A stretch of DNA of 57,382 nt from Candidatus Levyibacteriota bacterium. Lineage in GTDB: Bacteria; Patescibacteriota; Microgenomatia; Levybacterales; UBA12049. The notes beneath the pieces are model-generated. The model ran no database searches, was not told the origin of the DNA, and worked only from the letters and a program-made list of their open reading frames with translations. The stretch spans positions 1 to 57,382 of the forward strand of contig DAIDHL010000007.1 of the NCBI GenBank assembly GCA_027459745.1, in the 5' to 3' direction. A program made the translations under genes and the position numbers. Positions 7,501-47,683 of this stretch are shown here, in pieces. The first letter of the stretch is position 1, and every line of letters starts with the position of its first letter.

Positions 7501-9018
7501 ATTAACTGGAGACATACCATTGAATAAAAGAGAGTCGCTGCTTAAGCTCGTGCTAGGTATGGCTTCACGCGGTGTCAATTCAGCATTAGTAGCAATAGTC
7601 GTACCTAAATATAATGAGGGATTATCTGAGAAGATAGTTTGCGGTAGAGATTCGCTTTGGCCTAAGGTGATTTGAAAGCCACCGTCGTTATTTGGTTTTA
7701 CCAGGTGTACAGTTTGCCATAAAAGGGCAGATCCTGAACCAGTTGGGTCATTGTATAAACTAAACCTAACTTCGGTTGGTTGAGTAATAGGCTTTTGGCT
7801 AGCATCTAAAAGCTTGCCTTGAAAATAAAGCAAACGTTGAGCAGATTGCAATCCAAGTACAGTCTGATTGCTAGCTAGAGGTTTAAAAACAAGAAAGACT
7901 ACTGCTTCAGCTATAACCAAAAAGAATAAAAGTGCCCCTATCATAGCAAATGTCAGTTTTGGAGATATAAATTTATGGATTGATTGATTTTGTTTGACAT
8001 TGTTAGATATTGTTATAGGAGACAGAAAGGATTCAGAATACTTTTGTCGGTGACGTGACCAATAGACCGTATCCATTCGATTTTGAATATAAGAGCCAAA
8101 TCGAGGACTTATTTGCTGTGTGGGTACAAATATCTTTTTCCCCGACAAATTCCATAAAAGATATTGCCCAGAAACAACAGCATAGGTTAAAGGAATAATC
8201 AATAAATAATCCACCAGTAAATTAAGACTTCTGGTTAGCTTTTGCCAAAGACGTAGAGGAGGGAAAGAAGAATATTTAAATTCCTTCTTAGAAAGGTAGT
8301 TATTTGTCGACACATTATTATATGTAGTATCCTGATCACTATGGGGGATGCAATTTAACTCTATAGGTCCATTGTTTATCTTTTGCTTTATGTCCAAATA
8401 ATTATAATAACTTTTTAAAGACGACAGTCGGCGATTAATCGTAGATGGTGATATTTTTTCTTCTAGTAGCCTTTTCTTGTATTCGTTAATAACTGTCGGA
8501 GTTAGATAAGAAAGAATCTCTTTTTTGAGATCTAGATTTTGGTAAGTGGTCCGAAACCAAAAGAGAAATAGCTGCGTGTCAGTTAAGTAGTTCTTAATAG
8601 TCGCAGGACTTGACTTATGTTGTCCTAGATAGTTCCTGAAAGCTTTGAGCAAATATGGGTCATCAATAGACCTTGGTGAAACTTGAGAAAAAGGATTGAC
8701 ATAGATATATCCATTTTGTTGCAAAAAGTTAAAGAATTTGCGTAGACTAGAAAAGTATCTTTCAATCGATTGATTTGAAGCTGCCTTAGCACTGATGCTT
8801 TGCATGTGATAAGCAGACTCCTGCAGTGACTGCTTGTAGGCACGAATAATATCAAAGTGTACATCTTGAGGTTTAAATTCTTGAGTATAGGTAGCTTCGA
8901 ACCAGGCAATAAATTTTCGCAGGTCTGAGAGATAGTTTTTCACAGAGATATCCTGCAGAGCGGGTTGGCGACTGATAAGGTATTCCTTATACAAATTTTC
9001 AAAATTTAAAATAGGCAT
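4567..9018 (-). CDS. Giant surface fibre protein (1483 aa): two N-terminal recombinase SAM-like/core-binding-type domains, a TM segment, an S/T/N/G-rich fibre, and a conserved C-terminal module ending in WWIVN
   Basis: aa 1-215 carries two copies of a core-binding-domain-like pattern (SVKNYLSDLRKFIAWFE...IERYFSSLRKFFNFLQQNGYIYVNPF; TIKNYLTDTQLFLFWFR...INRRLSSLKSYYNYL). Hydrophobic segment LTFAMIGALLFFLVIAEAVVFLVF (~aa 357-380). Fibre motifs include LGIGTSNPLYKLDV. The DFAEY...GDPISVSNIPGVGVKAT module is shared with two other proteins in this window. ATG start at 9018. Confidence 0.9.
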   Translation of the reverse strand: MPILNFENLYKEYLISRQPALQDISVKNYLSDLRKFIAWFEATYTQEFKPQDVHFDIIRAYKQSLQESAYHMQSISAKAASNQSIERYFSSLRKFFNFLQQNGYIYVNPFSQVSPRSIDDPYLLKAFRNYLGQHKSSPATIKNYLTDTQLFLFWFRTTYQNLDLKKEILSYLTPTVINEYKKRLLEEKISPSTINRRLSSLKSYYNYLDIKQKINNGPIELNCIPHSDQDTTYNNVSTNNYLSKKEFKYSSFPPLRLWQKLTRSLNLLVDYLLIIPLTYAVVSGQYLLWNLSGKKIFVPTQQISPRFGSYIQNRMDTVYWSRHRQKYSESFLSPITISNNVKQNQSIHKFISPKLTFAMIGALLFFLVIAEAVVFLVFKPLASNQTVLGLQSAQRLLYFQGKLLDASQKPITQPTEVRFSLYNDPTGSGSALLWQTVHLVKPNNDGGFQITLGQSESLPQTIFSDNPSLYLGTTIATNAELTPREAIPSTSLSSDSLLFNGMSPVNTTSGLQRNVVLSLDSAGNLQIAGSSSPTFSATNGTFTLSGNLTVIKSNDLSNGNVVIAPDGSGMIDLQKPLTNTALTGNFPDNLGAVEVDDRLAVWATSSAQPALQIEQDGLGPLLNASSSGVSKFTVSYTGTGTFADNLAINGGSLTSSASTFNLLNDGPLELDIGNQAYDINIGSSSGILKINNSTTALSGNLTVNGTKGLTFTGDNAGINFSGYNDHVIEATQGALLINNAKLNNPQFNSNVIINNQLGIGTSNPLYKLDVVDNRDATVSAMISNTNTSANASALALKLGATYSSLTPNNKFIDFLDINGQSLGSITSNGMGGLTFSGHSNGDFAEYLPKDPNENIPTGALACFTSSQTVTQCSSQSYSSIAGVISASPTILAGQNNGAASIPVGFVGQLQVRVSTQNGSIQPGDPISVSNIPGVGVKATSAGPIIGHALASYTSNDPYLIDLILVVVQPSWYDPAVQITDAGNLNITMPSNSQAGNGSQPSYQLSDNNGHILSSIAAYAWASIANLQVGLVNTKDLIVTNSADFMGTLQASAIQTTQLSTNNILIAGVSLQDYVNNLIHQSNPGNANPLSPSIGNLAVNVISPLGTQSAIIINGNANINGNASVSGQLTSNTLQTTSATVSGTFYAHKIVADEIQGLNASPSATYITNVTNVYQNATPSAQPTTTLVDNTTATSSGIENNILPQELASQAITPLPNDINLASYSAQLTDANLQVSTLDVTTGLMSSGTTSLADTAIAGQLTIDGRLSIADTEINVVGSDLQLQPLRQGGVNFLGGLLTIDTNGNLNVAGNAVFNQNVTVSGTLAVNTLSPLANHNLSIQLATPSASNDPGLNINNASGSAVLTLTQQGDLNASGSGNFAQIVSNALTIVHGAQADTSITETVATASAGTAVIYRGQTERTIITPYAHAKSLIYISPSSDTYGQTPYIARQTDPQINPGQPNSFTIQISSPIDQDIHLNWWIVN

Positions 9019-31296: not shown

Positions 31297-31527
31297 CTAA
31301 GCAGTTTTTTGTTGAATACCTAATAGCCAAAGAACGGCTTCTTTTTTATATCGGCGATCACCTCGAGTGTTGATACGAATGGCTGGTAATTTACCTCGCT
31401 TGCCCCATCTCTTAATGGTAAGAGGAGAAACGCGTAAGATTTCGGCTACTTCACGAACTGTCAATAAATCGGGTAAAGACTGGATGGAGAGTTGGTTGTT
31501 ATTGTTACTAATACTTTGGTCGCTCAT
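31297..31527 (-). CDS. Small excisionase/MerR-type helix-turn-helix DNA-binding protein (76 aa)
   Basis: LTVREVAEILRVSPLTIKRWGKRGKLPAIRINTRGDRRYKKEAV. Clear paralog of the N-terminus of the 3220-aa protein (LTVQEAANYLHVSTQTLRRWDESSKLVSIRTQGNQRRYTIKQL). Confidence 0.8.
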   Translation of the reverse strand: MSDQSISNNNNQLSIQSLPDLLTVREVAEILRVSPLTIKRWGKRGKLPAIRINTRGDRRYKKEAVLWLLGIQQKTA

Positions 31528-31599: not shown

Positions 31600-34175
<2,576 letters not shown>

Positions 34176-34203: not shown

Positions 34204-35769
34204 TTATTTTTTCGTAATAATTGGTTTATTCTCAGCATTAACTTGTTTTATTTGGGTTACGTCGGTTTGTGGAGTGGGTGGATTTTGGGTGGAAGAAGGG
34301 AAAAGCTTATTTAAAAATGGTATAACGCTTTGGGCAATTACGCGCATAAAATCATTTAAAGTTTTATTGTTCGTAGTCATCTGGTCGACTTTTTGGCGAA
34401 AGTCTGTATCAGTATTATATATTTCGATTAACTGCATGATTTCATTTTTCATTTGTTCATGCGACTTAGTGTTCCAATAGCCAAACCACAAAATTGTGAA
34501 TAAAAAGAGTTGCAAATTACTATCCAGAATAGTATCGGTTTTCTGGTCAAAGAAATGTTGAATTCGCTCACCAGTGCTTAAAGTATCTCGAATTGTAGGA
34601 GTAACTTCGGCTCCAAAATGTGAAAAACGTTCCATACGTTCATGCAGAGTTAAGAAGCTCAAAACTTCACGGCTAATACTGCGTTTTAAATCAGTTTGAG
34701 TTTGTCTTCCGACACGGCTAACAGATAGAAAAGGATTAACTGCGGGACGACGGCCTTGGGTAAAAGAATCAATGTCAAAATAGATGTGTCCATCAGTCAT
34801 GGACATCAAATTAGTTTGTATGTATCCCGACATGTCTCCCTGGACCGTCTCTGCGACCGGTAAACACGTTATGGCGCATTCTTGTCCATCAGATGATATA
34901 AAATTACCTGCTCGTTCTAAAAGGCGCGCATGGGTATAAAAAATGTCAGCAGGATAAGAGTTGCGAGCAGGGAAGCGTTTACCCAAAAGTGAAATTTCGC
35001 GGTAAAATTTGGCATGAGTGTATAGATCGTCTAATACCAACACCACATCACGTCCCTGGTCTCGGAAATACTCAGCTAAAGTCATTGCACAATAAGGAGT
35101 GATATAGATTACAGATGCAGGATCATCAGAGGTGGAGGCCATAATCACTGTTTGGGCAGTAATGTTTTGTTTTTTGAAATAAGTTTCAGCTGCCTTGATA
35201 TCTAGTCTTTTTTTACCAATAGCGGCGTAGATACAAATGGCGCCTTGTCTGGCTTGTGTCACCAAAGTTTGGAACAAAAAGTTGGTCTTACCTGTTTTAC
35301 GGTCACCGATGACTAGTTCGCGTTGACCTTTTCCCAGTGTGATTAAAATATCTACCAATGCAATCCCAGTGTCGAAAGTTCGACTGACGCGTTGTCGAGT
35401 TGAAATATCACCAGGAGGGGAATCAATCTGTCGCATGGTTTTAGGCGCTTGGATATCAGAAAGTTTGTCTAATAATTTACCAAATGGATCAATTATTTGA
35501 CCTAGATACTCATCACCTACAGGTATTGAAAATAGTTGGTTAGTCCGCGCCACTTTGGTTCCAACTTTTAGTGGTTCGGCAGCGAAAACAAAAACCTCGA
35601 CTAAGTCTTGTGTAATATTACCCACCATACCTATGACTCCATTTTCAAAAATAAGCATTTCTTGTTGGTGAGCTGAAGGTAATCCAGAAACATATACCAA
35701 GGAACTAACTGTCTCTTGCACATAACCAATCTCATTAAACTGTTCAAGGTAGTGGGTAAAAGCTTCCAT
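34204..35769 (-). CDS. atpA: F1 ATP synthase subunit alpha (with a Pro/Thr/Gln-rich C-terminal extension)
   Basis: Walker A GDRKTGKT. LVLDDLYTHAKFYREISLL. SGYIQTNLMSMTDGHIYF. Confidence 0.95.
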   Translation of the reverse strand: MEAFTHYLEQFNEIGYVQETVSSLVYVSGLPSAHQQEMLIFENGVIGMVGNITQDLVEVFVFAAEPLKVGTKVARTNQLFSIPVGDEYLGQIIDPFGKLLDKLSDIQAPKTMRQIDSPPGDISTRQRVSRTFDTGIALVDILITLGKGQRELVIGDRKTGKTNFLFQTLVTQARQGAICIYAAIGKKRLDIKAAETYFKKQNITAQTVIMASTSDDPASVIYITPYCAMTLAEYFRDQGRDVVLVLDDLYTHAKFYREISLLGKRFPARNSYPADIFYTHARLLERAGNFISSDGQECAITCLPVAETVQGDMSGYIQTNLMSMTDGHIYFDIDSFTQGRRPAVNPFLSVSRVGRQTQTDLKRSISREVLSFLTLHERMERFSHFGAEVTPTIRDTLSTGERIQHFFDQKTDTILDSNLQLFLFTILWFGYWNTKSHEQMKNEIMQLIEIYNTDTDFRQKVDQMTTNNKTLNDFMRVIAQSVIPFLNKLFPSSTQNPPTPQTDVTQIKQVNAENKPIITKK

Positions 35770-35784: not shown

Positions 35785-36261
35785 TTATTGCTTCAGAAAA
35801 TGATCTATTTTGTTTTTTAAAGAATAATCCAGATATTCTCCCTTAAACGTAATAATTGCACCACCCATCACATGCGAATCGATCTTAAATTCAATTAAAG
35901 TATTAAGACCAAATTCAGTTTTAATCAGGCTGGCAATTTTTTGTGTCAGTTCATAGCTTGGTTCAAAAGCGAGAGTTAAGGTAAGTAATTCATTTGACTT
36001 CAAGACCTGAGAAAAATTATCAGCAAAGTTTTTAATAGCCTCGGGTGTTTGTAGATCAAGTTTTTTTTGCTCAATTTGTTGATTTAATACTTCTCCTACA
36101 GAAGCTGGAAGTTTATCTAATAACATGGTTAATGTATCAGTATGGTGTACTTTGTAGAGGTTTTCTAAAACCTCATTCAGTATGTCTTGGATTTTCTCTG
36201 CTTCTGCATGCGTATAAATCACTGCCAGAAGCGGGGATAATGGAGTCAGAGAATTATTCAT
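35785..36261 (-). CDS. atpH: F1 ATP synthase subunit delta (OSCP)
   Basis: Position and size fit. C-terminal IDSHVMGGAIITFKGEYLDYSLKNKI matches the OSCP C-terminal pattern. ATGA overlap with atpF. Confidence 0.8.
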   Translation of the reverse strand: MNNSLTPLSPLLAVIYTHAEAEKIQDILNEVLENLYKVHHTDTLTMLLDKLPASVGEVLNQQIEQKKLDLQTPEAIKNFADNFSQVLKSNELLTLTLAFEPSYELTQKIASLIKTEFGLNTLIEFKIDSHVMGGAIITFKGEYLDYSLKNKIDHFLKQ

Positions 36262-36968
36262 AAACTTATTCGTTTGGCTGCTTGCTTGACGGAATTTACT
36301 AACAATTGTTCTTGTTGATCTGGACTTAGACTCTCACCTAAAGTAGCGTAAATAATTTCTTTAAGCTTACTTTGTAATTGTTGATCTATTTCTTGCTGCT
36401 TTTGCTGACGATATGCAGAAAGTTCTTTCTCCAGGGCTTGGTATTCCTTGGCTATTTTTTCATCTAAGTCTTTCTGTCGTTCCATGGTCTCTTTCTCCAA
36501 CAACGATTTGAGTTGGGATAATTCCTGATCCGCTAAGTCTTCGATGTCTTTTGTGGCGCTTTGAAATACTTTTTCCGCTTTAGCCTCTTCACCAGTTAGG
36601 GAGTCTTTATATTCACTATGCAAATTCTCATTGATGTCGTCCAAGGCTTTGCTATGCATTTGCGTGAGTTCTTTAAGTTTATTCAAAAATATTTCCCTCT
36701 CGTTATTTTGAAATTGGCCTGCGTCTTCTATGATTTCCTCCGCTTTTTTATTAGCCTGTTGGATAATTTCCTCTGTTTGTTTATGAACTTTTTCTAAGGC
36801 TTTGCGAGTCTTTGTTTGTGTGGTGGTTTTTAAACTCATGTTTTCTTTAAGAATCTCTCTTAACTGATGAATTGATCTTTCATATTTAGCAATGATAGAG
36901 AGTACTGCCACAGCCAGGATAATAGTGGTGAGGACAATTAATAGTAAAAAGGCAGGTGCAACTAGCAT
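36258..36968 (-). CDS. atpF: Fo ATP synthase subunit b-like (long, 236 aa)
   Basis: Single N-terminal TM segment followed by a long charged coiled coil. Located upstream of atpH. Confidence 0.7.
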   Translation of the reverse strand: MLVAPAFLLLIVLTTIILAVAVLSIIAKYERSIHQLREILKENMSLKTTTQTKTRKALEKVHKQTEEIIQQANKKAEEIIEDAGQFQNNEREIFLNKLKELTQMHSKALDDINENLHSEYKDSLTGEEAKAEKVFQSATKDIEDLADQELSQLKSLLEKETMERQKDLDEKIAKEYQALEKELSAYRQQKQQEIDQQLQSKLKEIIYATLGESLSPDQQEQLLVNSVKQAAKRISL

Positions 36969-37036: not shown

Positions 37037-37849
37037 CTAGATAACGAGAATAAAATAACTTACGGCGATGCCGATGATAATCAAAAGCAACATGACCGAG
37101 ATATTAAAAACAATTCCAGCCCAAATTAACTTACTTGCCAAGGGATTGCGTCCTAAGGCCTCAATACCTGAGGTGGCAATGCGGCCAAAATAGCCTATGC
37201 CTAACAGAAAAGAAAATACCACTACCAGGGCGGCGGCGATATAGCGAATAATAGTGGCAGGGGAAACATACCCAGTGTTAATAATCTGTTGAAAAGAAGA
37301 AAAAACATTTTGGGTTTTAGTATTAATAGGTTGAGAACGTAAAGTAAAAGTAATGTTAGCTAAAATTAGTCCAGGTTTTTGTTTATTGGAATTATCATAG
37401 TTTTCCAAAGCAGTACCTATCACATAGCCATCTTCTGTTGCCTTTTGTGCTATTCCGGGAGTGTTTGATGTAGTCAAAATATCGCCAGTTTGGATTTTAC
37501 CATTGGCGGTATTTACTAGAACATAAGCCTTACCTTCATGAATGATCGGATAAGAATATTTTGATATAGAAAGAGGGTTTTCCAGAGAAACAGATGGGTT
37601 TTTTATCACCACACCTATGGCTGTAGGGTCATAAGCTACATTGCTCAGCTTGTATTCATGTGAGCTTAAGCTAACTACAGAACCAGGTTGCACATTCTGT
37701 CCTGGTATATCGACATAAATTGCTACTCCCGTAGACAATGTTTGCGCAAAAACTGATGTCATAGGAGACAGAAATTCTAACAAAAGAAGTAATAAAAAAA
37801 GAGAGATTATAGGACTTTTTTTAGCAAAAAGATGTATAAGTTTTAACAC
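37037..37849 (-). CDS. Fusion protein in the atpE position: signal peptide + fibre-type extracellular module + C-terminal ATP synthase c-subunit-like helical hairpin
   Basis: The C-terminus LGIGYFGRIATSGIEALGRNPLASKLIWAGIVFNISVMLLLIIIGIAV resembles c subunits (G-rich helix 1, R-N/Q-P loop, helix 2), but helix 2 contains no Glu or Asp. The middle region (YVDIPGQNVQPGSVV...GKIQTGDILTTSNTPGIAQKATEDGYVIGTALENY) matches a module in both giant proteins. Start set at GTG 37849, preceded by a GAGGA SD. The track extends to TTG 37960. Confidence 0.65.
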   Translation of the reverse strand: MLKLIHLFAKKSPIISLFLLLLLLEFLSPMTSVFAQTLSTGVAIYVDIPGQNVQPGSVVSLSSHEYKLSNVAYDPTAIGVVIKNPSVSLENPLSISKYSYPIIHEGKAYVLVNTANGKIQTGDILTTSNTPGIAQKATEDGYVIGTALENYDNSNKQKPGLILANITFTLRSQPINTKTQNVFSSFQQIINTGYVSPATIIRYIAAALVVVFSFLLGIGYFGRIATSGIEALGRNPLASKLIWAGIVFNISVMLLLIIIGIAVSYFILVI

Positions 37850-38020: not shown

Positions 38021-41000
38021 ATGAAAGACCTGTCCCTGTCCAAAGAAAGTGTACAAAAATTGACCGTTCAAGAAGCGGCAAATTATTTGCATGTCTCGAC
38101 TCAAACACTTCGTCGTTGGGATGAAAGTAGTAAATTAGTCTCCATCCGAACTCAAGGAAATCAGCGCCGTTATACTATCAAACAACTACGGGCCTTTAAA
38201 AAGTTATTACTGAAAAAGAATCCTCGCAGGGCCTTACAAAAATTAGCCCAAGAAGCTAACTTGCCTCAAACAGAAGAAATGCCTATTTCCACTGCAGAGC
38301 AAAATTTGGTAGTGCCGAAAATGGATCTTTCCTATACGGCCGAAGAAGATCTGCCACAAGAGCAATATTTAGGTCTATCAACTATAGCTGAACGTTATGC
38401 CTGGGAACAAGACAGACTGCGTGATCTGAATGAGCGAATTGCGGCTTATCAGCCTCCCGCTGATTTAATTTCCAGTGAAAATCTTTTTGCACAGGAATCA
38501 GAAGAAGCTAACAAAAAATATAAAAATCTATCTAAATATATCATTTTAACCTCAGCTGGTTTGGTTTTTACTTTATTTCTACTCAGTTCGCTTCTAATTT
38601 TTAAGCCAGAGTTATTAGGTGCTAGTTGGATGAATAATAATCTGTTTAAATCCACAGTCGCTCAGTTAGGTTTAGGTAAAAATAATTTCCAAGCTGTGCT
38701 CGGCGCTGCCAGTATCAATCCTGATTTACAATTCACAGTCTCGATCCCTTCTTTATTTAAACAAGAAACCATATTTTCTGCTTCAGTTAGTGCGCAACAA
38801 AATTTAACTGTAGGTCAGGCTTTAACTGCAAATGGTTTATCTAACTTGAATGGAGGGATAACCACCAATAATGCCAATATTGATGCAGGCGTGGGTAGCG
38901 TAACTGCAGCCAATTTGTTGTATGGCGTTAAGGCTGGTTCGGGTATTAGTATCAGCGCGGGGCAGACTCCCACGATTAGTTCGACGATCACGCAAACAAG
39001 TTTGCAAGGACAAACCGGAGCCTTAACTTTAAATGCTGGATCTGGTATTTCCATTGATGGGTTAAAGATCTCAGCCAATGATCTAGGATCTAGCCAAAAT
39101 ATTTTTAAGAATATAGCAGTCACCGGACAAAATACAATTACTGCTGGAAATAACAACGATACACTTACTTTTGCCCAGGGGGCAGGAATTACTCTGACCA
39201 CAGATTCAGCCAATAAAATTTTAACAATCGCTGCTTCAGCTGGTACAGGTGGAAATGGTCAGTGGCTGATCAATGGTACGAGCCTGTACTACACAGGTGG
39301 CAATATTGGTATAGGCACTGCAGCTCCTTTGGGTTTACTTGATGTGCAAGGGGCATCTTCGATTACTGGAATGGCAGCAGGAATTATCAATCAAACTGGG
39401 AGTGGAGATGTTTTTACAGCCAGTTCTTCGGGAGTGACTGATTTTGTTATAAAAAATAATGGTACGATACAGATGCCTGGTTTATCGACTGGCATTGCTC
39501 ATTTTGATGCCAATGGCATCTTGAGCAGTAGTCAGGTTGCTCTGGCCAGTGGAGACGTGATTGGTACATTGCCGATTAATCGCGGTGGTACCAATACTAC
39601 CTATCTGGGCCAGGCAGGCGCGATTGCTTACTCTAACGGAACTTACTATGATTTCACTACCCAGGGAACGGCAAATCAATGTCTAGTATCCAATGGCTCG
39701 GGAGCGCCAGGATGGGGAAATTGTATTTTAGGAGTAAATTATTGGCAACAAGGGAGTGGGGCAATCTCACCAGGGAATGAGACGAATGACGTCTTGATCG
39801 GGAACACCGCCACTAGCTCGGCGGCTTTTGCGTTTTCAGGTGTACTGGCAAACACGCGTACAGCGAGTATCAGTGGTAACTTATCTATAGCTGTTCCCAC
39901 TGGAGTAAGTGGTTCCAACAGTTTAAATATTTTCAATGGGGGGTCACTGTCTTTCAAAGTCTCACCTGGAGGCAACAGTGGTTTGAATTCCAGTTTCGTT
40001 TTGAACAGTAATGGTAGTGTCCAATTGCCAAATTTAACTACAGGTGTAGCTCATCTTAGCTCAAATGGCATATTAAGTAGCACTTTGATAGATTTAACGA
40101 GTGCTGCCGACCTAACAGGAATTTTGCCCATCAGCTTTGGTGGTACTAATACAGGTACTTTGGGCAGTGCAGGTACGGTTGCTTACTCTGATGGCACCAG
40201 CTATAACTTTACTGTTCAAGGAAATCCCGGCCAGGTTTTAATTTCAAACGGCTCTAGTGCGCCTTCTTGGGTAAGCTCGGGTTCGGTTGGTACTAATTAC
40301 TGGAATGAAGGAAATGGAGTGATTACTCCTGCTGATAATTCAGTAGATCTCTTGACAGGTGGGCAATCGACGTCTTCAGCAGCTTTTGCCTTTATCGGTA
40401 CGACGACCAATACTCGTTCTGCCTCTATTTCGGGCAATCTTTCTTTAAGTGTTCCAATTGGAAATAATTCCGGTGATAGCGTAAATATGTTAAACGGCGG
40501 ATCGCTGAGTTTCAATTTGTCTGCTGGCGGTGATAGCGGTTTAGCATCATTGTTCAAGTTAAATAGTAATGGAAGCGTACAATTTCCTAGTCTAAGTACC
40601 GGAATTGCTCATCTGAGTAATACAGGTGTGTTATCCAGTAGCTTGGTTAATCTTGCTGCGGATGTAACAGGGGTGTTGCCGTTAGCTAATGGTGGAACTA
40701 ATTCTAACTCGGTTGGTACAGCTGGTACGGTAGTTTATTCAAATGGAAGTTCATATCAATTTACGACTGCTGGTAATTTGGGGGATGTTTTAATTTCTAA
40801 CGGCACAGGTGCTCCCACATGGACTAGCTCAAGTTCAGTCGGGGTAAATTATTGGAACGAACTTGCTGGTACTGTTTCACCAAAATATTTAAGTAATGAT
40901 TTATTACTGGGTGGAACATCCACACAAAGCGCTAAGTTTGCATTTCTCAACAATTCAGGTATAGGTAATCCGACTGCTTCGATCTCAGGTAATTTGGCTT

Positions 41001-44000
41001 TGTCTGTGCCAACAGGGGCTAATCCTAATGCTGCCTTGAATGTCTTAAATGGAGGTAGCTTATCTTTGCAAACTAGTCCCGGTGGAGATAATGGTTTAAA
41101 TACTGCTTTATATTTAGCTGCGGGCGGTAGTGTAGGGATTGGTAACACCAATCCTAAAGCGAAACTAGATATTAGTGGGGCAGTTCGTTTAGGAGCAGCA
41201 GGTGGGAATAATGATATTCTAAATACGTCTGCCGCAGTTGGAGCTCCTTCCGGAGATTTGTATTGGGGTAACGAGGTTTTGTGTAATTCTACTGGTAATT
41301 GTGTAGGATCAGGGGGTACGGTTGGGGGGAATGGCACGGCTAATTACTTAGCTAAATTTACCGGTACCTTCAACTTAGGTAACGGTGATATTTATGACAA
41401 TGGAAATATTGGCATTGGTACTACCAATCCTTTGGCTCTCTTGCATATCGAAGGTGGTAATACCGGAGGGAATGCGGTAGCTATATTTAATCAAATCGGC
41501 AGTTCTAATAATGATATCTTTACGGCCAGTTCAGCTGGTATCACTAAATTTACGATTGCCAATGATGGTACGATTACAGATAAGAAATATTCAACTGGTC
41601 TGGCCCATATCAATTCTAATGGTAGCTTCAGTAGTAGTGCTGTTGACTTGACTAGTAGTGATGTCACAAATATATTGCCTATTGCCAAAGGAGGTACTGG
41701 CAATATGTCTTTAGGGTCATATGGTGGGGTAGCCTGGGCTGATACAGTAGACAATGAAATAGCATACACCGCTGCTGCGACATCCCAGGGGCAAGTCTTA
41801 GTTTGGGGCCCCTTTGGCTATCCAGTGTGGCAGAATTCTTCCAGCGTAGGAGCTAATGATTGGCAAATAATTGGAGGAGCGCTATCGCCTATAAATAATG
41901 CCAATGATTTCTTGCTTGGTTCTTCCTCTACCAGTAGTGCGGTATTTGCTGTAACAAAGATGAGTTACAATGATCCATCTTATATTTTCCACTCAAATTT
42001 ATCCTTGACTGTTCCTGGAGGGTCATCTGGAACTCAAACCTTACAAATACTTAATGGAAGTTCTTTAACCACACAGACAGCAAATGTGGGCAATACTAGT
42101 TTTATAAATGATGTTTTCGATATCAATAATAATGGTACGATCAGTATTGGCCAATCAGGGGGTAGCTCTACTTTAAATGTCGGTGGTACTGGTAATTTTA
42201 CAAGTAATCTATCAATTGGAGCCAGTGGAAAAACAGCTTTGTTGTTAACAAATAGCGGTAGTAATACTGGCTTAACGATTGCTGGTACTAATGGAAATGT
42301 CGATTTGTATAATTCAGGTTCACAAATTTTAGGGACAGACAATAATTTTAGTATAAATGGAGGAATAAACAATGGTAATGCAGCCTTAAGTGTAAACCAA
42401 AATGGAGCTTTGACAAACGATATCTTTACTGCCAGTAGTTCGGGTGTTACTAAATTTACGATTGCCAATGATGGCACAATTACTGCAGGTGGTACAGCTT
42501 ACGCTACTGGTTCAATTGGCATTGCTCATTTTTCTGCCTCAGGAGTATTAAGTAGTGGCCCAGTACATCTGGAGAGTAATGAGGTTACGGGAACTTTGGG
42601 TATCAATGATGGAGGAACCAATACTACCTCGATCGGCTTGGGTGGTACAGTTGTTTATTCTGATGGCACGCGTTATCAGTTTACTGGCGTAGGGACAACT
42701 GGGCAATGTTTAATTTCCAATGGCTCAGGTGCACCGGCATGGACCAATTGTGGAAGTGGAATTTGGAATCAAGCTAGTGGTGCCATCTATGCCAATAATT
42801 CGACTCAGGATTTATTGTTAGGGGGTAATAGTACATCGAGTGCAAAGTTCGCCTTTTTGAATGATAATTCAGGTATACCAGTCGCAAGTATTTCAGCTAA
42901 CAGTACAAATAACGCAACTTACTTATCAGGAGCAGGTGTGTTGGGGACTACTAATACTCAGACTTTAACGCTGGGGTCAAGTAGTACTGGAAATATAATT
43001 GTGAATCCTCGTAATAGTGCGGTAGGTGGTTACTTGGCGCCTGCAACTGATAATGTAACTGACCTAGGGGCGACTGGCTCTGCCAGATTTAGAAACTTAT
43101 TTTTAGGACCTGGATCTTTACATATACAATGTACAGTTACTGAAGGCTGTGGAAGCGTTAGTCAATTATATGATTATGCTTTGGGAGTTAACCCCGCCAA
43201 TAATAATTTTGCTTTTAGGGTCAATGGTAATGAAGAGGTGTCGATTAATAGCGCTGGAACATTAGGTTTAGCGGGTGCCAGCGCGACTGGTGGCAATTAT
43301 ATTACCAGTTCTAATTTTAACGTCACGACGGCCGGTGCAGTTAACGCAGCCAGCACTATCACCGGTACAAACATTAATGGCACAACTGGCATTAATTCCG
43401 GCATAGGTGCAGGGACACAAAGAATTGATAATAACGGTAATTTAGTGAACATTGGCAATATCACAGCTTCGGGTACGATTAATTTTACAGGTTTAGGAAA
43501 TGGAGTTTTACAAGCTTCTTCTGGCTTGTTGTCAGCTACCACTGTTGGTGTGTCTAGTGGTGGAACTGGGGTAAGTAGTGTTGGTGCTGCTGGTTCTCTT
43601 GCATATAGTAATGGGAGTAGTTATTCGTTTACTACCGCTGGTACCACTGGACAATGTTTGATATCCAATGGTTCAAGTGCACCGACTTGGGGAAGTTGTG
43701 GATCAGGTGGAGGGGGAGGTACTAGTTTGTTTGCCGATGGAAATGGTTCTATATATCCGCTGAATGCCACAGAAGATTTGTTCATTGGTGGAACAAGTAC
43801 ATCCTCAGCCAAGTTTGCTTTCTTAAATAATAATACTGGTACGCCAGTTGCCTCTATTTCTGCAAACTCAGGTAATAATGCTACGTTTATATCTGGTGAT
43901 GGTTATATCAGTGCTACCAATAAGCAAAATCTAAATTTTGGTAACAACCTAACATACAATTCGACGGGTAATCTATTATTTAACACCAATGGTGTTGGTT

Positions 44001-47000
44001 ATGCAGGATTTGGGACTACCAATCCAGTTGTGCCATTACAACTTACTGTAGGTGGTACAGCTTCTGTCAATGTTTCGGATGCAGGGACAGCTTTATTAAT
44101 TTCGGCTACCAATACGGCAGGTAGTTGGTCAGCAGCGGCTATCCAATCCGGAACAACTGGTAATGCGACTTTATATTTAGGCAATAGCAGTAATGAAACA
44201 GCAGGGGCAGTACGTTATGACAACGCCAATAATGTTTTGCGATTATTTACTAACGGTACTGACAAATTTGATATCAACAGTACTGGGAACTTGAGTGCAG
44301 TTGGCTCACTTAGCGGATTAACCGGTTTAGCATCATCAGGTACAATTAATTTTTCCGGGTTAGGAACTGGAGCAGTAGTTGCCTCCTCTGGTATATTATC
44401 TGCAGGTACTTTGAGTGTCGGTAATGGGGGGACTAATGCCGTAAGTGTTGGGTCTGCTGGCTCAATTGCTTATAGCACTGGTGCTGCCTATGCATTTACA
44501 GCAGTTGGGTCTACTAATCAGTGTTTGTTGTCTAATGGATCAGGTACGCCAACCTGGGGAAGTTGTGGGGGAAGTAGTTTGTTTGTGAACAATGCAACAG
44601 ACAGTACTTTAACTAGAAGTGGAAGTGGTCCATATACCCTGGGTTTAAATCTAGGTAATGCTAATACCTGGACAGCACTTCAAACCTTCAATGGAGGATT
44701 AACAGTAGCAGGAACAACCAATATCAACACAAGTGGAACGTCCAGTACTAATATAGGAACATCAACCAACACCGGGAATGTAGCTATTGGGAACAGTACA
44801 GGCACATTTGCCTTAACATCCAATGGTGGATTAAACGTAACCACAGGGGGAGCACTAACAGGAGTAGCATCTTTGGATACTATCACCACGAGTGCAACTG
44901 CTTTAACATTTGCCAATGCAGGATCACTAACCGCAAGTGGGACAAATACATTAACACTCAATGGTTCATCCACCGGCAATATTCAGTTTTTCAGTGGAAG
45001 CAATACATTAAGTAGTGCCGGTTCCTTAACTCTAGCGGGGAATATATCAGCAGCCGGAACAACAGGACTAACCTTATCAGGTAATGGTGCGGCTATAAAA
45101 TTTACCGGAGCAGTCAATAATTACAACTCGATTACCACGGCAAATAATAATAATTTGGCTCTTTTACCCAATGGTACTGGAAATGTCGGTATTGGTACCA
45201 CTACACCGGGTTCATTACTGACGGTAGCTGGGAATATTTCAAACATTGCTAATGACAATGCCAATTATGCTCCTACCTATGTTAGTCAAAATAGTGATTC
45301 TAATTTGAATACTCCATATGGTTTATTCGTACAAGGTAATTATGTTTATTTAACCAATGACAATACCACTGGTAAGCTATCGGTTTATAATATATCCAGT
45401 GGGGTTCCTGTGTATGTGGGTCAGAATAGTGATTCTAATTTAAATAGTCCATTAGCAGTAGCGGTGGCAGGTAGATATGCATATGTGCCAAGTGAAGGAA
45501 CAAACAAATTAGTTACTTATGATATATCTACTGGTACACCAGTTTATGTAGGACAAAATAGTGATGCTAATTTGAGCAACCCGTGGGATATAGCCGTAGC
45601 AGGTAGATATGCTTATGTAGCAAGTTATGGTACGAATAAGTTAGTAAGTTATGATATCACTAGTGGGACACCGGTCTATGTGGGACAGAATAGTGATAGT
45701 AATCTATCAAACCCCACAGCGGTTTATGTATCCGGACGATATGCTTATGTGATAAGCAGTGGGACAAATAAATTATCGGTTTATGACATTTCTAGTGGGA
45801 TACCGGTCTATGTGGGACAGAACAGTGATAGTAATATTAGTAGTTCTTCAGGCGTTTATACAGAAGGTAAATATGCTTATGTATTAAATAGTAGTAAGTT
45901 ACTAGTTTATGACATTTCTAGTGGGACACCGGTCTATGTGGGACAGAATAGTGATAGTAATATATCTTCAGCCTTTGGATTTACTGTTTCTGGTAGGTAT
46001 GCCTTTATTAGCACTTCTTTTCCAAGCAACATTGCAGTATATGATCTTTATAGCGGGACTCCTGTCTATATAGGTAAAAATACTGATTCTAATTTGCTTT
46101 ATCCTCGTAGTGTTATGGTTTTTGGTAATAATATTTATGTGGCTAATGGAGGGGATAATAAGGTGGATATATATAATGTGGGGGGAATCCAAACTACTTC
46201 GATTATTGCTCATTCAGCTGAATTAGGCAATTTGAGTATAGACACTAATGCCCAGATTGCTAATAGTTTAAGTATAGGAGGAGGATTGAATATAGGTAGT
46301 GGAGGACTGTACAGCAAAGGCAGTATTTCGACTAATTCTAACATGCTTATTCAAGGCGCAGGTCTTTGTGTCACGAGCAATGCCGCTGGTTGTCAAAAAC
46401 TTTATGCTGCTGGGACGATTGATGCGACAAGTAGCTTGGTAACCGGTGCCGACGTGGCGGAAAATTATGTTTCCTCTCAAACTCTATTGCCCGGAGAAGT
46501 AGTAGCTATGGCCAACGATGGTAATTCTAACGCAGTTGTTGCTACGACCTCTATTAATCAGAATGGATTATTGGGAGTTGTTTCTACCAATCCTGGTGTA
46601 ACAGTTAATTCTGGTGCCCAAATGGATTCTACCCACCCTAATATTTATCCTATTGCTTTGGTAGGACGCATTCCGGTTCGAGTATCAAGTGCTAATGGTC
46701 CAATTAGCGTGGGTGATCCATTGACGTCATCCAGTATACCTGGTGTGGCTGTCAAAGCAACTAAACCGGGGGTAATTATCGGACGCGCGTTGGAGTCATA
46801 TACTAATTCGGATCAATATATTATTGGTACAATCACTGCTTATTCCAATGTGTCATATTATGATCCGACTGCTGCACAATATGCGATTACCAGTAATGGT
46901 TTATTAGCCGTTACTAATGGTAATAGTTCTACTAGTTCAAACACTAATAGTGTCGCAACAGCGAGTGCTATATTGGGAGATGCCACTAGTTCTACACAGT

Positions 47001-47683
47001 CAGCTAGCTTGACTGATCAAGTTACTGCTTTACAACAACAAGTAAGTCAGAACAGTGAACAGATTAGCTCTTTGCAAAAATTGCTTAATCAAGTCGGTTC
47101 AACTTCAGCAAGTTTAGAACAATTGACTTCACTGCTAGCCTCGTCGTCTGCTTTGCCCACGAACTTTGCCACAGGGCAGGATTTGAATATTCAATCTGCG
47201 ACCATATCAGCAGATTTGCAAGTCTTGGGTAAGACCACGGTTAATGATCTAGGGGTCACCGGAAATATCACTACTGGGCTGTTAACCATTGATGGTTTGA
47301 ATGGTAGTATAGATAACATTGCTCAACCATTGAAATTGCAACCAGAAGCCTTAACTACGATTGAGATGGAAGGTGGAAATGTCGTTATTGCTACCAATGG
47401 GGATATTACTACTAAAGGTGTGATTAATGTAGCTAAGGTCAATGTGGATGAATCAAATCTATCAACGGCTAGTGTAGGACAGGGTACAATTAAAGCAGGT
47501 AGTACGTCGGTTATGATTAATACCACTTCTGTGACCGATAAATCACATATCTTTGTCACAGTCAGAGGAAGTAATGCAGTCCCATTATCCGTTGCAACCA
47601 CAGTATCCGGTAAATCATTTAGTGTGGTGATGCCCACAGCTCAATCCTCAGATGTAAAGTTTGATTGGTGGATAGTGAATTAA
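38021..47683 (+). CDS. Giant surface fibre protein (3220 aa): N-terminal excisionase/MerR-type HTH, one TM segment, ~185-aa repeat modules, 7-bladed LVIVD-type beta-propeller, conserved C-terminal modules ending in WWIVN
   Basis: HTH at aa 14-59. TM segment YIILTSAGLVFTLFLLSSLLIF (nt 38537-38602). Recurrent LPxxxGGTN, GQxLxSNGSGAPxW and STSSAKFAF motifs. Seven PVYVGQNSDSNL...YAYV...KLxVYDISSGT repeats. DVAENY...GDPLTSSSIPGVAVKAT module. Terminal KFDWWIVN. Confidence 0.92.
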   Translation: MKDLSLSKESVQKLTVQEAANYLHVSTQTLRRWDESSKLVSIRTQGNQRRYTIKQLRAFKKLLLKKNPRRALQKLAQEANLPQTEEMPISTAEQNLVVPKMDLSYTAEEDLPQEQYLGLSTIAERYAWEQDRLRDLNERIAAYQPPADLISSENLFAQESEEANKKYKNLSKYIILTSAGLVFTLFLLSSLLIFKPELLGASWMNNNLFKSTVAQLGLGKNNFQAVLGAASINPDLQFTVSIPSLFKQETIFSASVSAQQNLTVGQALTANGLSNLNGGITTNNANIDAGVGSVTAANLLYGVKAGSGISISAGQTPTISSTITQTSLQGQTGALTLNAGSGISIDGLKISANDLGSSQNIFKNIAVTGQNTITAGNNNDTLTFAQGAGITLTTDSANKILTIAASAGTGGNGQWLINGTSLYYTGGNIGIGTAAPLGLLDVQGASSITGMAAGIINQTGSGDVFTASSSGVTDFVIKNNGTIQMPGLSTGIAHFDANGILSSSQVALASGDVIGTLPINRGGTNTTYLGQAGAIAYSNGTYYDFTTQGTANQCLVSNGSGAPGWGNCILGVNYWQQGSGAISPGNETNDVLIGNTATSSAAFAFSGVLANTRTASISGNLSIAVPTGVSGSNSLNIFNGGSLSFKVSPGGNSGLNSSFVLNSNGSVQLPNLTTGVAHLSSNGILSSTLIDLTSAADLTGILPISFGGTNTGTLGSAGTVAYSDGTSYNFTVQGNPGQVLISNGSSAPSWVSSGSVGTNYWNEGNGVITPADNSVDLLTGGQSTSSAAFAFIGTTTNTRSASISGNLSLSVPIGNNSGDSVNMLNGGSLSFNLSAGGDSGLASLFKLNSNGSVQFPSLSTGIAHLSNTGVLSSSLVNLAADVTGVLPLANGGTNSNSVGTAGTVVYSNGSSYQFTTAGNLGDVLISNGTGAPTWTSSSSVGVNYWNELAGTVSPKYLSNDLLLGGTSTQSAKFAFLNNSGIGNPTASISGNLALSVPTGANPNAALNVLNGGSLSLQTSPGGDNGLNTALYLAAGGSVGIGNTNPKAKLDISGAVRLGAAGGNNDILNTSAAVGAPSGDLYWGNEVLCNSTGNCVGSGGTVGGNGTANYLAKFTGTFNLGNGDIYDNGNIGIGTTNPLALLHIEGGNTGGNAVAIFNQIGSSNNDIFTASSAGITKFTIANDGTITDKKYSTGLAHINSNGSFSSSAVDLTSSDVTNILPIAKGGTGNMSLGSYGGVAWADTVDNEIAYTAAATSQGQVLVWGPFGYPVWQNSSSVGANDWQIIGGALSPINNANDFLLGSSSTSSAVFAVTKMSYNDPSYIFHSNLSLTVPGGSSGTQTLQILNGSSLTTQTANVGNTSFINDVFDINNNGTISIGQSGGSSTLNVGGTGNFTSNLSIGASGKTALLLTNSGSNTGLTIAGTNGNVDLYNSGSQILGTDNNFSINGGINNGNAALSVNQNGALTNDIFTASSSGVTKFTIANDGTITAGGTAYATGSIGIAHFSASGVLSSGPVHLESNEVTGTLGINDGGTNTTSIGLGGTVVYSDGTRYQFTGVGTTGQCLISNGSGAPAWTNCGSGIWNQASGAIYANNSTQDLLLGGNSTSSAKFAFLNDNSGIPVASISANSTNNATYLSGAGVLGTTNTQTLTLGSSSTGNIIVNPRNSAVGGYLAPATDNVTDLGATGSARFRNLFLGPGSLHIQCTVTEGCGSVSQLYDYALGVNPANNNFAFRVNGNEEVSINSAGTLGLAGASATGGNYITSSNFNVTTAGAVNAASTITGTNINGTTGINSGIGAGTQRIDNNGNLVNIGNITASGTINFTGLGNGVLQASSGLLSATTVGVSSGGTGVSSVGAAGSLAYSNGSSYSFTTAGTTGQCLISNGSSAPTWGSCGSGGGGGTSLFADGNGSIYPLNATEDLFIGGTSTSSAKFAFLNNNTGTPVASISANSGNNATFISGDGYISATNKQNLNFGNNLTYNSTGNLLFNTNGVGYAGFGTTNPVVPLQLTVGGTASVNVSDAGTALLISATNTAGSWSAAAIQSGTTGNATLYLGNSSNETAGAVRYDNANNVLRLFTNGTDKFDINSTGNLSAVGSLSGLTGLASSGTINFSGLGTGAVVASSGILSAGTLSVGNGGTNAVSVGSAGSIAYSTGAAYAFTAVGSTNQCLLSNGSGTPTWGSCGGSSLFVNNATDSTLTRSGSGPYTLGLNLGNANTWTALQTFNGGLTVAGTTNINTSGTSSTNIGTSTNTGNVAIGNSTGTFALTSNGGLNVTTGGALTGVASLDTITTSATALTFANAGSLTASGTNTLTLNGSSTGNIQFFSGSNTLSSAGSLTLAGNISAAGTTGLTLSGNGAAIKFTGAVNNYNSITTANNNNLALLPNGTGNVGIGTTTPGSLLTVAGNISNIANDNANYAPTYVSQNSDSNLNTPYGLFVQGNYVYLTNDNTTGKLSVYNISSGVPVYVGQNSDSNLNSPLAVAVAGRYAYVPSEGTNKLVTYDISTGTPVYVGQNSDANLSNPWDIAVAGRYAYVASYGTNKLVSYDITSGTPVYVGQNSDSNLSNPTAVYVSGRYAYVISSGTNKLSVYDISSGIPVYVGQNSDSNISSSSGVYTEGKYAYVLNSSKLLVYDISSGTPVYVGQNSDSNISSAFGFTVSGRYAFISTSFPSNIAVYDLYSGTPVYIGKNTDSNLLYPRSVMVFGNNIYVANGGDNKVDIYNVGGIQTTSIIAHSAELGNLSIDTNAQIANSLSIGGGLNIGSGGLYSKGSISTNSNMLIQGAGLCVTSNAAGCQKLYAAGTIDATSSLVTGADVAENYVSSQTLLPGEVVAMANDGNSNAVVATTSINQNGLLGVVSTNPGVTVNSGAQMDSTHPNIYPIALVGRIPVRVSSANGPISVGDPLTSSSIPGVAVKATKPGVIIGRALESYTNSDQYIIGTITAYSNVSYYDPTAAQYAITSNGLLAVTNGNSSTSSNTNSVATASAILGDATSSTQSASLTDQVTALQQQVSQNSEQISSLQKLLNQVGSTSASLEQLTSLLASSSALPTNFATGQDLNIQSATISADLQVLGKTTVNDLGVTGNITTGLLTIDGLNGSIDNIAQPLKLQPEALTTIEMEGGNVVIATNGDITTKGVINVAKVNVDESNLSTASVGQGTIKAGSTSVMINTTSVTDKSHIFVTVRGSNAVPLSVATTVSGKSFSVVMPTAQSSDVKFDWWIVN
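39731..44600 (+). repeat. Array of ~6-7 divergent ~185-aa repeat modules inside the 3220-aa gene
   Basis: Modules restart at about nt 39731 (GVNYWQQGSGAISP), 40289 (GTNYWNEGNGVITP), 40841 (GVNYWNELAGTVSP), 41848, 42760, 43720 and 44574. Each contains the STSSA(A/K)FAF and LPxxxGGTN...YSNGxxYxFT...SNGSGAPxW blocks. Boundaries are approximate. Confidence 0.75.
45266..46186 (+). repeat. Seven tandem ~43-aa LVIVD-like beta-propeller blades with partly identical DNA
   Basis: A repeat unit of ~129 nt. The 40+ nt string ccggtctatgtgggacagaatagtgatagtaat recurs almost exactly at ~45672, ~45803 and ~45929. Confidence 0.8.

What the first reader, a model, noticed from the sequence alone, without database searches (positions are those of the whole stretch)
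37037..37849. c-subunit-like hairpin fused to an extracellular fibre-type domain and apparently lacking the ion-binding carboxylate
The last ~70 aa (IAAALVVVFSFLLGIGYFGRIATSGIEALGRNPLASKLIWAGIVFNISVMLLLIIIGIAVSYFIL) line up by eye with F-type c subunits (LGAGIGNG...IEGIARQPE...MFIGVALVEALPIIG). They share the Gly-rich helix 1 and the R-(Q/N)-P loop. Helix 2 has no Glu or Asp; an Asn falls near the expected position. The N-terminal ~200 aa comprise a signal peptide plus the same module found near the C-termini of both giant fibres. A c-ring decorated with an external domain and unable to bind H+/Na+ classically would be unprecedented. It might couple the F1 motor to surface structures, or act as a static anchor.
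Basis: inference. Interest (0 to 1): 0.75.

Follow-up and report, generated by a model that had tools for sequence, protein, structure and literature searches.

The report
Ion-blind ATP-synthase c subunit with outside domain
In many ultra-small (CPR) bacteria, the rotor subunit of the "ATP synthase" operon has lost its ion-binding site and gained an exported domain shared with giant surface fibres encoded next door, so this machine is probably not a conventional ATP synthase.

Summary
Gene X (37849..37037, minus strand, 270 aa) has four parts: a signal peptide, a ~130-aa beta domain, a linker and a C-terminal two-helix hairpin.

The hairpin is a remote homologue of F-type c subunits. Family profiles hit only c subunits in PDB (E=0.002). 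hhalign gives E=2e-5 (score 30.9; shuffles 11±2). The AF2 hairpin superposes on c subunits at 1.2–2 Å.

The loop GRNP is invariant. The carboxylate position (E. coli D61 = L254) is I/L/V/A/G in all 58 aligned homologues. The conserved Asn lies five residues earlier.

The outside domain folds like phage decoration proteins and the phi29 gp12 autochaperone. It is homologous to a module in both giant fibres of the window.

X is no assembly artefact: 393 species genomes carry it, and 701 clusters at 50% identity match the hairpin.

X heads the operon X-b-delta-alpha-gamma-beta-epsilon. A giant fibre gene usually lies beside it. No a subunit or canonical c lies within 10 kb in 83 loci. Whole genomes could not be checked.

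Best reading: an ion-uncoupled F1 ATPase whose c-derived membrane base reaches outside to the fibres. The mechanism is inferred. I found no published description.

The parts
37037..37849 (-). Gene X: 270-aa fusion protein (signal peptide, exported beta domain, linker, c-subunit-like hairpin). GTG start with a GAGGA ribosome-binding site.
37745..37849 (-). Signal peptide, aa 1-35. The hydrophobic core is LFLLLLLL and the predicted cleavage site is VFA|QT. The A-Q site is conserved in the family.
   Evidence: inference from sequence; no dedicated predictor was run
37334..37732 (-). Exported beta domain, aa 40-172. It folds like phage decoration/cement proteins and the phi29 gp12 C-terminal autochaperone. 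It carries the conserved TSSxxPGxGxKAT motif and is homologous to the module in both giants.
37262..37333 (-). Linker with a short helix (aa 182-191) and the conserved P-x3-LRY motif that leads into helix 1.
37040..37261 (-). c-subunit-like helical hairpin, aa 197-270 (helix 197-234, helix 236-269).
37142..37153 (-). Invariant cytoplasmic loop G233-R234-N235-P236, which corresponds to the c-subunit R41-Q42-P43 loop that contacts gamma/epsilon.
37088..37090 (-). L254, the position equivalent to the ion-binding carboxylate (E. coli D61). It is a variable hydrophobic residue in the family.
37103..37105 (-). N249, near-invariant Asn in helix 2 (= E. coli V56), 5 residues on the loop side of the carboxylate position.
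37181..37183 (-). R223 of the conserved F-G-R motif in helix 1 (= E. coli I30; R/K in 57 of 58). By hairpin geometry it lies at about the same depth as N249.
   Evidence: depth is inference
36258..36968 (-). b-like peripheral-stalk subunit: 236 aa, one N-terminal TM helix plus a long helical region.
35785..36261 (-). delta/OSCP subunit.
34204..35769 (-). F1 alpha subunit.
33321..34175 (-). F1 gamma subunit.
31877..33280 (-). F1 beta subunit. Walker A and the GERTRE catalytic motif are present.
31600..31899 (-). Short epsilon subunit, 99 aa, matching only the N-terminal part of epsilon profiles.
31297..31527 (-). Small MerR/HTH_17 protein downstream of epsilon. It recurs at this position in many related loci.
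38021..47683 (+). Giant fibre 1 (3220 aa), transcribed divergently from X. It has a cytoplasmic MerR/HTH_17 domain (aa 14-60), one TM helix (~aa 170-190) and a huge ectodomain.
46448..46858 (+). Giant 1: ADVAENY motif (aa 2810-2816) followed by the module homologous to the X ectodomain (aa 2817-2946).
4567..9018 (-). Giant fibre 2 (1483 aa): two cytoplasmic integrase-SAM-like domains, one TM helix (aa ~351-369) and an ectodomain with a Peptidase_G2 IMC match.
6109..6465 (-). Giant 2: module homologous to the X ectodomain (aa 852-970), preceded by GDFAEYL.

Best explanation
What is shown. X descends from the F-type c subunit. It kept the two-helix hairpin and the cytoplasmic R-N-P loop. It lost the membrane carboxylate. 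It gained a signal peptide and an exported intramolecular-chaperone-like beta domain. X occupies the slot where atpB-atpE normally sit, at the head of an otherwise complete F-type operon (b, delta, alpha, gamma, beta, epsilon) whose catalytic motifs are intact.

What is inferred.
1. X oligomerises in the membrane and is the base to which the gamma/epsilon foot of F1 binds. The EALGRNPLA loop is the most conserved stretch of the protein.
2. No protonatable or Na+-binding group remains, and the outer face of helix 2 is free to vary. The complex therefore cannot couple to H+ or Na+ in the known way, and works as an ATP-consuming machine rather than an ATP synthase or ion pump.
3. Its output, torque or a conformational change, goes outside the cell through the crown of exported domains. 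These engage the homologous module, or the stub left after autocleavage, of the giant membrane-anchored fibres encoded beside the operon.

In effect this is an 'F1-X0' ATPase that serves surface fibres for attachment, assembly or movement.
For: c-subunit descent.

Loss of the carboxylate and a variable outer face at positions 250, 251, 254, 255 and 258 (entropy above 2.1 bits), while one helix face and the loop are conserved.

Topology. The signal peptide puts the N-terminus outside, as in c subunits, so the loop faces F1.

Operon position.
- Median gap from X to the next atp gene is 28 nt.
- alpha, gamma, beta and epsilon follow X in 57 of 59 loci that have enough downstream DNA.
- The same operon occurs in Parcubacteria, with a longer X.
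- In L070, X sits with only the rotor subunits gamma and epsilon.

Link to fibres.
- A giant-like ORF lies within 2.5 kb upstream in 53 of 67 loci.
- In Parcubacteria the giant follows epsilon by 1-2 nt on the same strand.
- In the WWE3 locus L081, X sits beside a giant even though no F1 genes are nearby.
- The ectodomain module is present in every giant whose C-terminal part was fetched.

No a subunit or small c within 10 kb in 83 loci.
Against: - Oligomeric state, F1 binding and any movement are untested.
- Helix 1 lacks the GxGxGxG packing motif. F218, Y220 and F221 occupy those positions, so a classical tight ring is not assured. The decoration-protein and autochaperone relatives of the ectodomain are, to my knowledge, trimeric.
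- Genome-wide absence of subunit a and canonical c could not be checked.
- A published COG table lists AtpB hits in single genomes of Curtiss-, Roizman-, Woyke-, Pace- and Sungbacteria (PMC10656485, Supplementary Data 4). It is not known whether those genomes carry X.
- Some lineages (L001, L010, L030, L071, L072) have no adjacent b or delta genes, which leaves a rotary motor without an obvious stator.
Confidence: 0.5

Rival explanations
1. Static anchor or assembly platform. X only tethers F1 to the membrane. Separately, or in addition, it acts as a membrane-fixed chaperone or dock that helps fold or hold the giant fibres. No torque crosses the membrane, and the ATPase has a regulatory or housekeeping role.
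For: The ectodomain resembles autochaperone and decoration domains. Some lineages lack b and delta, so they have no stator. X occurs beside a giant without adjacent F1 genes in L081.
Against: It does not explain why a tiny genome keeps a complete, catalytically intact F1 with gamma and epsilon in tight operon linkage to X. It also does not explain why the F1-facing loop is the most conserved part of X.
Confidence: 0.25
2. Conventional or hybrid ion-coupled enzyme. Subunit a, and perhaps a canonical c, are encoded elsewhere. X then either joins a mixed c-ring as a carboxylate-less member that carries an outside handle, or uses an unrecognised ion site.
For: COG0356 (AtpB) hits are reported for single genomes of several Microgenomates-type lineages and Sungbacteria. 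Acetobacterium woodii c1 (PDB 4bem) is a precedent for a carboxylate-less hairpin in a working ring (my recollection of that work). Whole genomes were not searchable here.
Against: - No a subunit or small c in 83 loci.
- X sits exactly in the a-c slot of the operon.
- No acidic residue in the helix cores of 58 homologues, and a variable outer face.
- Bulky aromatic residues replace the glycines of helix 1, which argues against packing into a canonical ring (inference).
Confidence: 0.2
3. Artefact: a frameshift or misassembly has fused a surface-protein gene to a small atpE.
For: None found.
Against: The same fusion occurs in 393 species genomes and in 701 clusters at 50% identity, with purifying selection across the junction.
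Confidence: 0.01

Closest known systems
F-type ATP synthase subunit c (AtpE; Pfam PF00137, COG0636)
   Same: Two-helix hairpin. N-terminus outside and loop inside. R-(Q/N)-P loop preceded by a conserved Glu. Conserved Gly six residues after the carboxylate position. Encoded just upstream of atpF. Superposes at 1.2-2 A.
   Different: No carboxylate (L254). The helix 1 glycine motif is replaced by F/Y/F. It has a conserved Arg223/Asn249 pair, a signal peptide and a 130-aa exported domain (or HTH + TM + domain in Parcubacteria). It scores below the Pfam threshold. No atpB lies beside it.
Mycoplasma F1-like X0 ATPases, Types 2 and 3, including the Mycoplasma mobile gliding motor (Beven et al. 2012, PMC3369863; PMC8406192; PMC11864180)
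   Same: An F1-type alpha/beta/gamma/epsilon set is joined to a non-Fo membrane sector in a genome-reduced, host-dependent bacterium. In M. mobile it is linked to huge surface proteins and to mechanical work outside the cell.
   Different: The mycoplasma clusters are extra paralogues beside a genuine F1Fo, and their membrane proteins have no similarity to Fo subunits. Here b and delta are usually kept, and the membrane partner is recognisably c-derived. Whether a genuine F1Fo coexists is unknown. The two systems evolved independently.
Acetobacterium woodii c1 subunit in the hybrid c-ring (PDB 4bem)
   Same: A c-type hairpin without the ion-binding carboxylate in an F-type enzyme (my recollection of the 4bem work). 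Both 4bem chains (c2 and c1) are among the PDB hits of the hairpin profile.
   Different: c1 is a duplicated four-helix subunit that keeps one functional site. It sits in a ring of normal c2/c3 subunits and has no extra domain.
Phage intramolecular-chaperone / Peptidase_G2 domain (phi29 gp12 C-terminus, PDB 3gqh/3suc) and beta-tulip decoration proteins (BB1, Sf11, TW1)
   Same: The fold of the X ectodomain (Foldseek E from 5e-5 to 5e-4). One homologue passes the Pfam XM1_gp53_minor_capsid threshold. The giants carry a Peptidase_G2 match and a D-x-A-E motif just upstream of the same module.
   Different: X lacks the D-x-A-E motif. Its signal-peptide cleavage site sits where that motif would be. 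X is permanently membrane-anchored through the hairpin.

Membership tests
F-type ATP synthase subunit c (PF00137 / COG0636) | Sequence match to the curated family model above its threshold | tested here: not met
   Pfam finds no hit at E<=10 for X or for its last 71 aa. Homologue P0020 scores 11.1 bits against a cut-off of 24. NCBIfam NF005521 scores 18.3 bits against a cut-off of 122.
F-type ATP synthase subunit c (PF00137 / COG0636) | Remote homology by profile, reciprocal search and structure | tested here: met
   PDB profile search E=0.0023, with c subunits filling the top ranks. hhalign E=2e-5 against shuffle scores of 11±2. The c HMM retrieves X orthologues from 6087 ORFs. Foldseek TM-score 0.7-0.88.
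F-type ATP synthase subunit c (PF00137 / COG0636) | Helical hairpin with a polar cytoplasmic loop R-(Q/N)-P and the N-terminus on the outer side | tested here: met
   GRNP is invariant in 58 of 58 sequences. AF2 predicts helices 197-234 and 236-269. The signal peptide places the N-terminus outside.
F-type ATP synthase subunit c (PF00137 / COG0636) | Membrane-embedded Asp/Glu in helix 2 that binds H+ or Na+ | tested here: not met
   The D61-equivalent column is I20, L18, V11, A4, G2 (five commonest residues). The helix cores have no acidic residue except E243 in 3 of 58 sequences.
F-type ATP synthase subunit c (PF00137 / COG0636) | Glycine packing motif (GxGxGxG) in helix 1 | tested here: not met
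   Only G217 and G222 are conserved. F218, Y220 and F221 occupy the other positions.
F-type ATP synthase subunit c (PF00137 / COG0636) | Encoded in the atp operon next to atpB (a) and atpF (b) | tested here: inconclusive
   X lies directly upstream of b (or of alpha) in nearly all of the 83 loci. No atpB lies within 10 kb.
F-type ATP synthase subunit c (PF00137 / COG0636) | Forms a homo-oligomeric ring under gamma/epsilon | not testable with these tools
   Only monomer prediction was available. Multimer modelling or cryo-EM is needed.
Conventional F1Fo ATP synthase (whole complex) | Subunit a with the essential Arg present in the genome | not testable with these tools
   Only +-10 kb around X could be read, and subunit a is absent there. 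The published COG table shows AtpB in some related lineages, but whether those genomes have X is unknown.
Mycoplasma F1-like X0 ATPase (Types 2/3) | Extra alpha/beta paralogues beside a genuine F1Fo, with a membrane sector unrelated to Fo and no b/delta | tested here: not met
   b and delta are present in most loci, and the membrane partner is c-derived. Coexistence with a genuine F1Fo was not testable. X resembles this family in how it may work, but is not a member.
Peptidase_G2 / intramolecular chaperone domain | Fold and family-model match | tested here: inconclusive
   Foldseek hits phi29 gp12 C-terminus at E=4e-4. The Peptidase_G2 model matches giant 2 just upstream of, and overlapping, the shared module. 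X itself gives only weak Phage_cement_2 / XM1_gp53 matches, and one homologue is above threshold.
Peptidase_G2 / intramolecular chaperone domain | Autocleavage motif (D-x-A-E type) at the N-terminal edge of the domain | tested here: not met
   The motif is present in the giants (ADVAENY, GDFAEYL, ADFAEYF and others) but absent from X. That this motif is the cleavage site rests on my memory of the phi29 gp12 work.

The most novel reading that the evidence does not exclude
The 'ATP synthase' of Microgenomatia and part of the Parcubacteria is a new kind of trans-membrane mechanical transducer. In this reading an F1 motor burns ATP to turn, or rock, an ion-blind c-derived ring that has no a subunit. 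The crown of chaperone-like domains on that ring grips and actuates giant surface fibres, by winding, rotating, extending or assembling them. This would be a second, independent invention of an F1-powered surface machine after Mycoplasma mobile. It would also mean that these CPR lineages have no chemiosmotic ATP synthase at all.
Probability: 0.3. Interest if true: 0.95.

Novelty: new variant of a known kind. Interest (0 to 1): 0.85.

Why it matters
Reviews state that most CPR/Patescibacteria keep an F-type ATP synthase. They puzzle over what it does without a respiratory chain, suggesting reverse proton pumping or pH homeostasis (PMC11665869, PMC13293708).

In at least 393 species-level genomes, the subunit in the c position cannot bind H+ or Na+ in the known way and carries an outside domain. 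Metabolic reconstructions that score 'complex V present' are then wrong about energy conservation in these lineages.

The finding also gives a concrete, testable candidate for how ultra-small episymbionts power or assemble their giant surface fibres. And it is a natural experiment on what an F1 motor can do once freed from ion coupling.

Tried and rejected
- Direct Pfam scans of X and of its last 71 aa gave no ATP-synt_C hit. This was not taken as refutation, because the profile-level tests were positive.
- PHROGs gave nothing for X.
- A PDB sequence search with the b-like protein gave nothing useful.
- Subunit a was sought in three ways: by E. coli AtpB phmmer, by an R-x-x-[GAS]-N motif in multi-TM ORFs, and by Pfam scans of ten multi-TM neighbours. 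All candidates turned out to be EamA, BacA, Bax1-I, ComEC, Rce1-like or similar.
- The 2-kb gaps between X and b in L061, L079 and L080 were checked for hidden a/c genes. They hold a phosphoglycerate mutase gene plus a divergent b.
- A second 'alpha' hit in L075 is Rho.
- Eight successful literature searches found no description of this protein or operon type. Two further attempts failed on term length.
- I tried to use the supplementary COG table of PMC10656485 to settle whether subunit a is present. It has no accession-level data and does not say which genomes carry X.
- A cluster look-up did not link X to those genomes.

Full report
**What is at the locus**

On the minus strand, an ORF runs from 37849 (GTG, with GAGGA 7 nt upstream) to 37037. 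It heads a co-directional run of genes:
- a b-like protein with one TM helix (36968-36258; NCBIfam b, E about 2e-4);
- delta/OSCP (Pfam E=7e-8);
- alpha, gamma and beta;
- a short epsilon.

There is no atpB and no small atpE. A 3220-aa giant protein is transcribed divergently from 38021.

**Is the hairpin c-like beyond chance?**

Single-sequence Pfam says no. NCBIfam gives a weak hit to F0F1 subunit C over residues 179-264 (E=0.0017). Evidence at the family level is clear.

- Family size. There are 238 homologues of about 255-275 aa.
- PDB profile searches. A 58-sequence alignment used as a profile against all PDB sequences puts c subunits in the six top places. A hairpin-only profile gives E=0.0023, 0.0081, 0.015 and 0.027, all for c subunits.
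- Profile-profile comparison. The reversed profile scores 12.0. One hundred column shuffles score 11.0±2.2, with a maximum of 17.3.
- Reciprocal search. A c-subunit HMM run against all 6087 six-frame ORFs of at least 40 aa in the window and 81 related loci pulls out almost only X orthologues, the best at 1.6e-5. It finds no small canonical c.
- Structure. AlphaFold2 with the family alignment (pLDDT 88) predicts a signal helix, a beta domain (residues 42-171), a short helix and a hairpin (197-234 and 236-269). Foldseek superposes the hairpin on dozens of c subunits, with TM-score 0.7-0.88, rmsd 1.2-2 A and 24-28% identity for the best.

**The ion site**

All alignments agree on the register X residue = E. 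coli residue + 193.

| X residue | E. coli c equivalent |
|---|---|
| R234-N235-P236 | R41-Q42-P43 |
| E230 | E37 |
| G222 | G29 |
| F221 | I28 |
| L254 | D61 |

Column 254 reads I20, L18, V11, A4, G2 (the five commonest residues). No Asp or Glu occurs in either helix core in 58 sequences, apart from E243 in three of them at the cytoplasmic edge.

The conserved Asn (N249, 55 of 58) is five residues nearer the loop (= V56). A conserved Arg/Lys (R223, 57 of 58; = I30) sits at a matching depth on helix 1. I infer that the two form a polar pair, but I could not measure it.

The helix 2 positions that would face subunit a (250, 251, 254, 255, 258) are among the most variable. The loop and one helix face are conserved. 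The glycine motif of helix 1 is replaced by F218, Y220 and F221.

**The outside domain**

Foldseek matches it to phage decoration/cement proteins (Borrelia phage BB1, Sf11, TW1) and to the C-terminal autochaperone of phi29 gp12 (E from 5e-5 to 5e-4). One homologue passes the Pfam threshold for XM1_gp53_minor_capsid.

The domain is homologous to a module in both giants of the window:
- 38% identity, E=7e-14, with giant 1 residues 2817-2940;
- E=2e-9 with the 1483-aa giant residues 851-952.

In giant 2 a Peptidase_G2 'IMC autoproteolytic cleavage' match lies just upstream of the module and overlaps it. In the giants the module follows a motif (ADVAENY, GDFAEYL, ADFAEYF and others). From memory, this looks like the autocleavage site of such domains. 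X lacks the motif, and its signal-peptide cleavage site sits in that place.

Mature X therefore resembles the cleaved-off chaperone fragment of a fibre, tied to the membrane by a c-like hairpin.

**Distribution and context**

- Spread. A scan of one genome per species found 393 genomes with X. The 80 loci fetched carry names such as Levy-, Roizman-, Woese- and Shapirobacteria and WWE3. A full HMMER scan with the hairpin profile found 701 clusters at 50% identity.
- Operon. Among the 59 loci with at least 6.5 kb downstream, 57 have alpha, gamma, beta and epsilon after X. Delta was recognised in 53 and b in 49. Divergent b genes were found by eye in others. The median gap from X to the next gene is 28 nt.
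- Giant neighbour. A giant-like ORF lies within 2.5 kb upstream in 53 of 67 loci. Every giant whose C-terminal part was fetched has the module.
- Variants.
  - Some lineages have X-alpha-gamma-beta-epsilon without b or delta.
  - L070 has only X-gamma-epsilon.
  - The WWE3 locus has X beside a giant, with no F1 genes within 10 kb.
- Long form. A longer form of X (390-590 aa) occurs in Parcubacteria, including Sungbacteria. It has a cytoplasmic HTH_17 domain, a TM helix, the same ectodomain and the same hairpin.
  - Its operon is again X-b-delta-alpha-gamma-beta-epsilon.
  - A fibre-like giant gene starts 1-2 nt after epsilon.

**Subunit a**

Nothing resembling subunit a lies within 10 kb of X in 83 loci. 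I could not read whole genomes.

The COG table of Mahendrarajah et al. 2023 (PMC10656485, Supplementary Data 4) lists one AtpB hit each in single genomes of Curtiss-, Roizman-, Woyke-, Pace- and Sungbacteria. The Curtissbacteria genome has no AtpE hit. Whether those genomes carry X is unknown.

So 'a-less operon' is shown. 'a-less genome' is not.

**Interpretation**

Shown:
- c-subunit descent;
- loss of the ion site;
- the exported chaperone-like domain;
- tight, ancient linkage to F1 genes and to giant fibre genes.

Inferred:
- X is the membrane base under gamma/epsilon;
- the enzyme is not ion-coupled;
- it delivers ATP-driven work, or at least ATP-dependent control, to the fibres.

The two main rivals are a static anchor or assembly platform, and a hybrid or conventional enzyme with a and c encoded elsewhere.

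The closest known system in how it may work is the mycoplasma F1-like X0 ATPase. [quoted passage not shown] X is not a member of that family.

**Novelty**

I found no paper describing this protein or operon type. Current reviews treat the CPR enzyme as a conventional F-type ATP synthase.

Noticed in passing
window 38021-38605 and 7900-9018 (N-termini of the two giants); proteins P0204, P0216, P0220, P0264, P0265: Both giant fibres begin with cytoplasmic DNA-binding-type domains followed by a single TM helix: MerR/HTH_17 in giant 1 and two integrase SAM-like domains in giant 2. The long Parcubacterial form of X has the same HTH_17 + TM start. Whether these domains bind DNA, as in a membrane-tethered regulator, or bind part of the ATPase is unknown.
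   Followed up: partly
window 31297-31527 (-); the same position in L003, L004, L005, L006, L010, L012, L029, L049, L050 and others: A small stand-alone MerR/HTH_17 protein recurs just downstream of epsilon. It is a paralogue of the HTH at the giant's N-terminus. In L083 one lies just upstream of X.
   Followed up: partly
window 47724-48101 (+); L008 3623-4060; L036 1335-1709; L083 16976-17368; L001 5165-5803: 23S_rRNA_IVP (four-helix-bundle, Avd-like) genes are scattered through the cluster. One lies after giant 1 in the window, one between X and b in two Levybacteria-type loci, and one between beta and epsilon in a Sungbacterium. They look like small mobile insertions. No reverse transcriptase was seen nearby.
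   Followed up: no
window 46448-46468; giants in L004, L013, L017, L028, L040, L056, L062, L067, L080, L081: A conserved (A/S/G/T)-D-x-A-E-x-(Y/F/M) motif lies directly before the shared module in the giants. This suggests that the giants cut off their C-terminal part autocatalytically, as phage tail spikes do.
   Followed up: partly
L061 10724-12409; L079 6442-8214; L080 10763-12460: A cofactor-independent phosphoglycerate mutase gene is inserted between X and the b-like gene in three loci.
   Followed up: yes
L070 689-2675: A three-gene unit X-gamma-epsilon, the presumed rotor set, has no alpha or beta on the 5-kb contig.
   Followed up: partly
L005 11604-13082; L031 11827-13541: The alpha subunit gene is split into two ORFs in two loci. 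The cause could be a frameshift, a sequencing error or decay.
   Followed up: no
window 48124-50514 (-); L007 10708-13119; L046 9409-10794: A 796-aa membrane protein recurs a few kb from the operon in at least three loci. It has an N-terminal TM helix, a weak fn3 match and three C-terminal TM helices with acidic residues in them.
   Followed up: no
window 14770-16038 (+): A ComEC-type competence channel (Pfam Competence, E=3e-50) is encoded in the same window.
   Followed up: no
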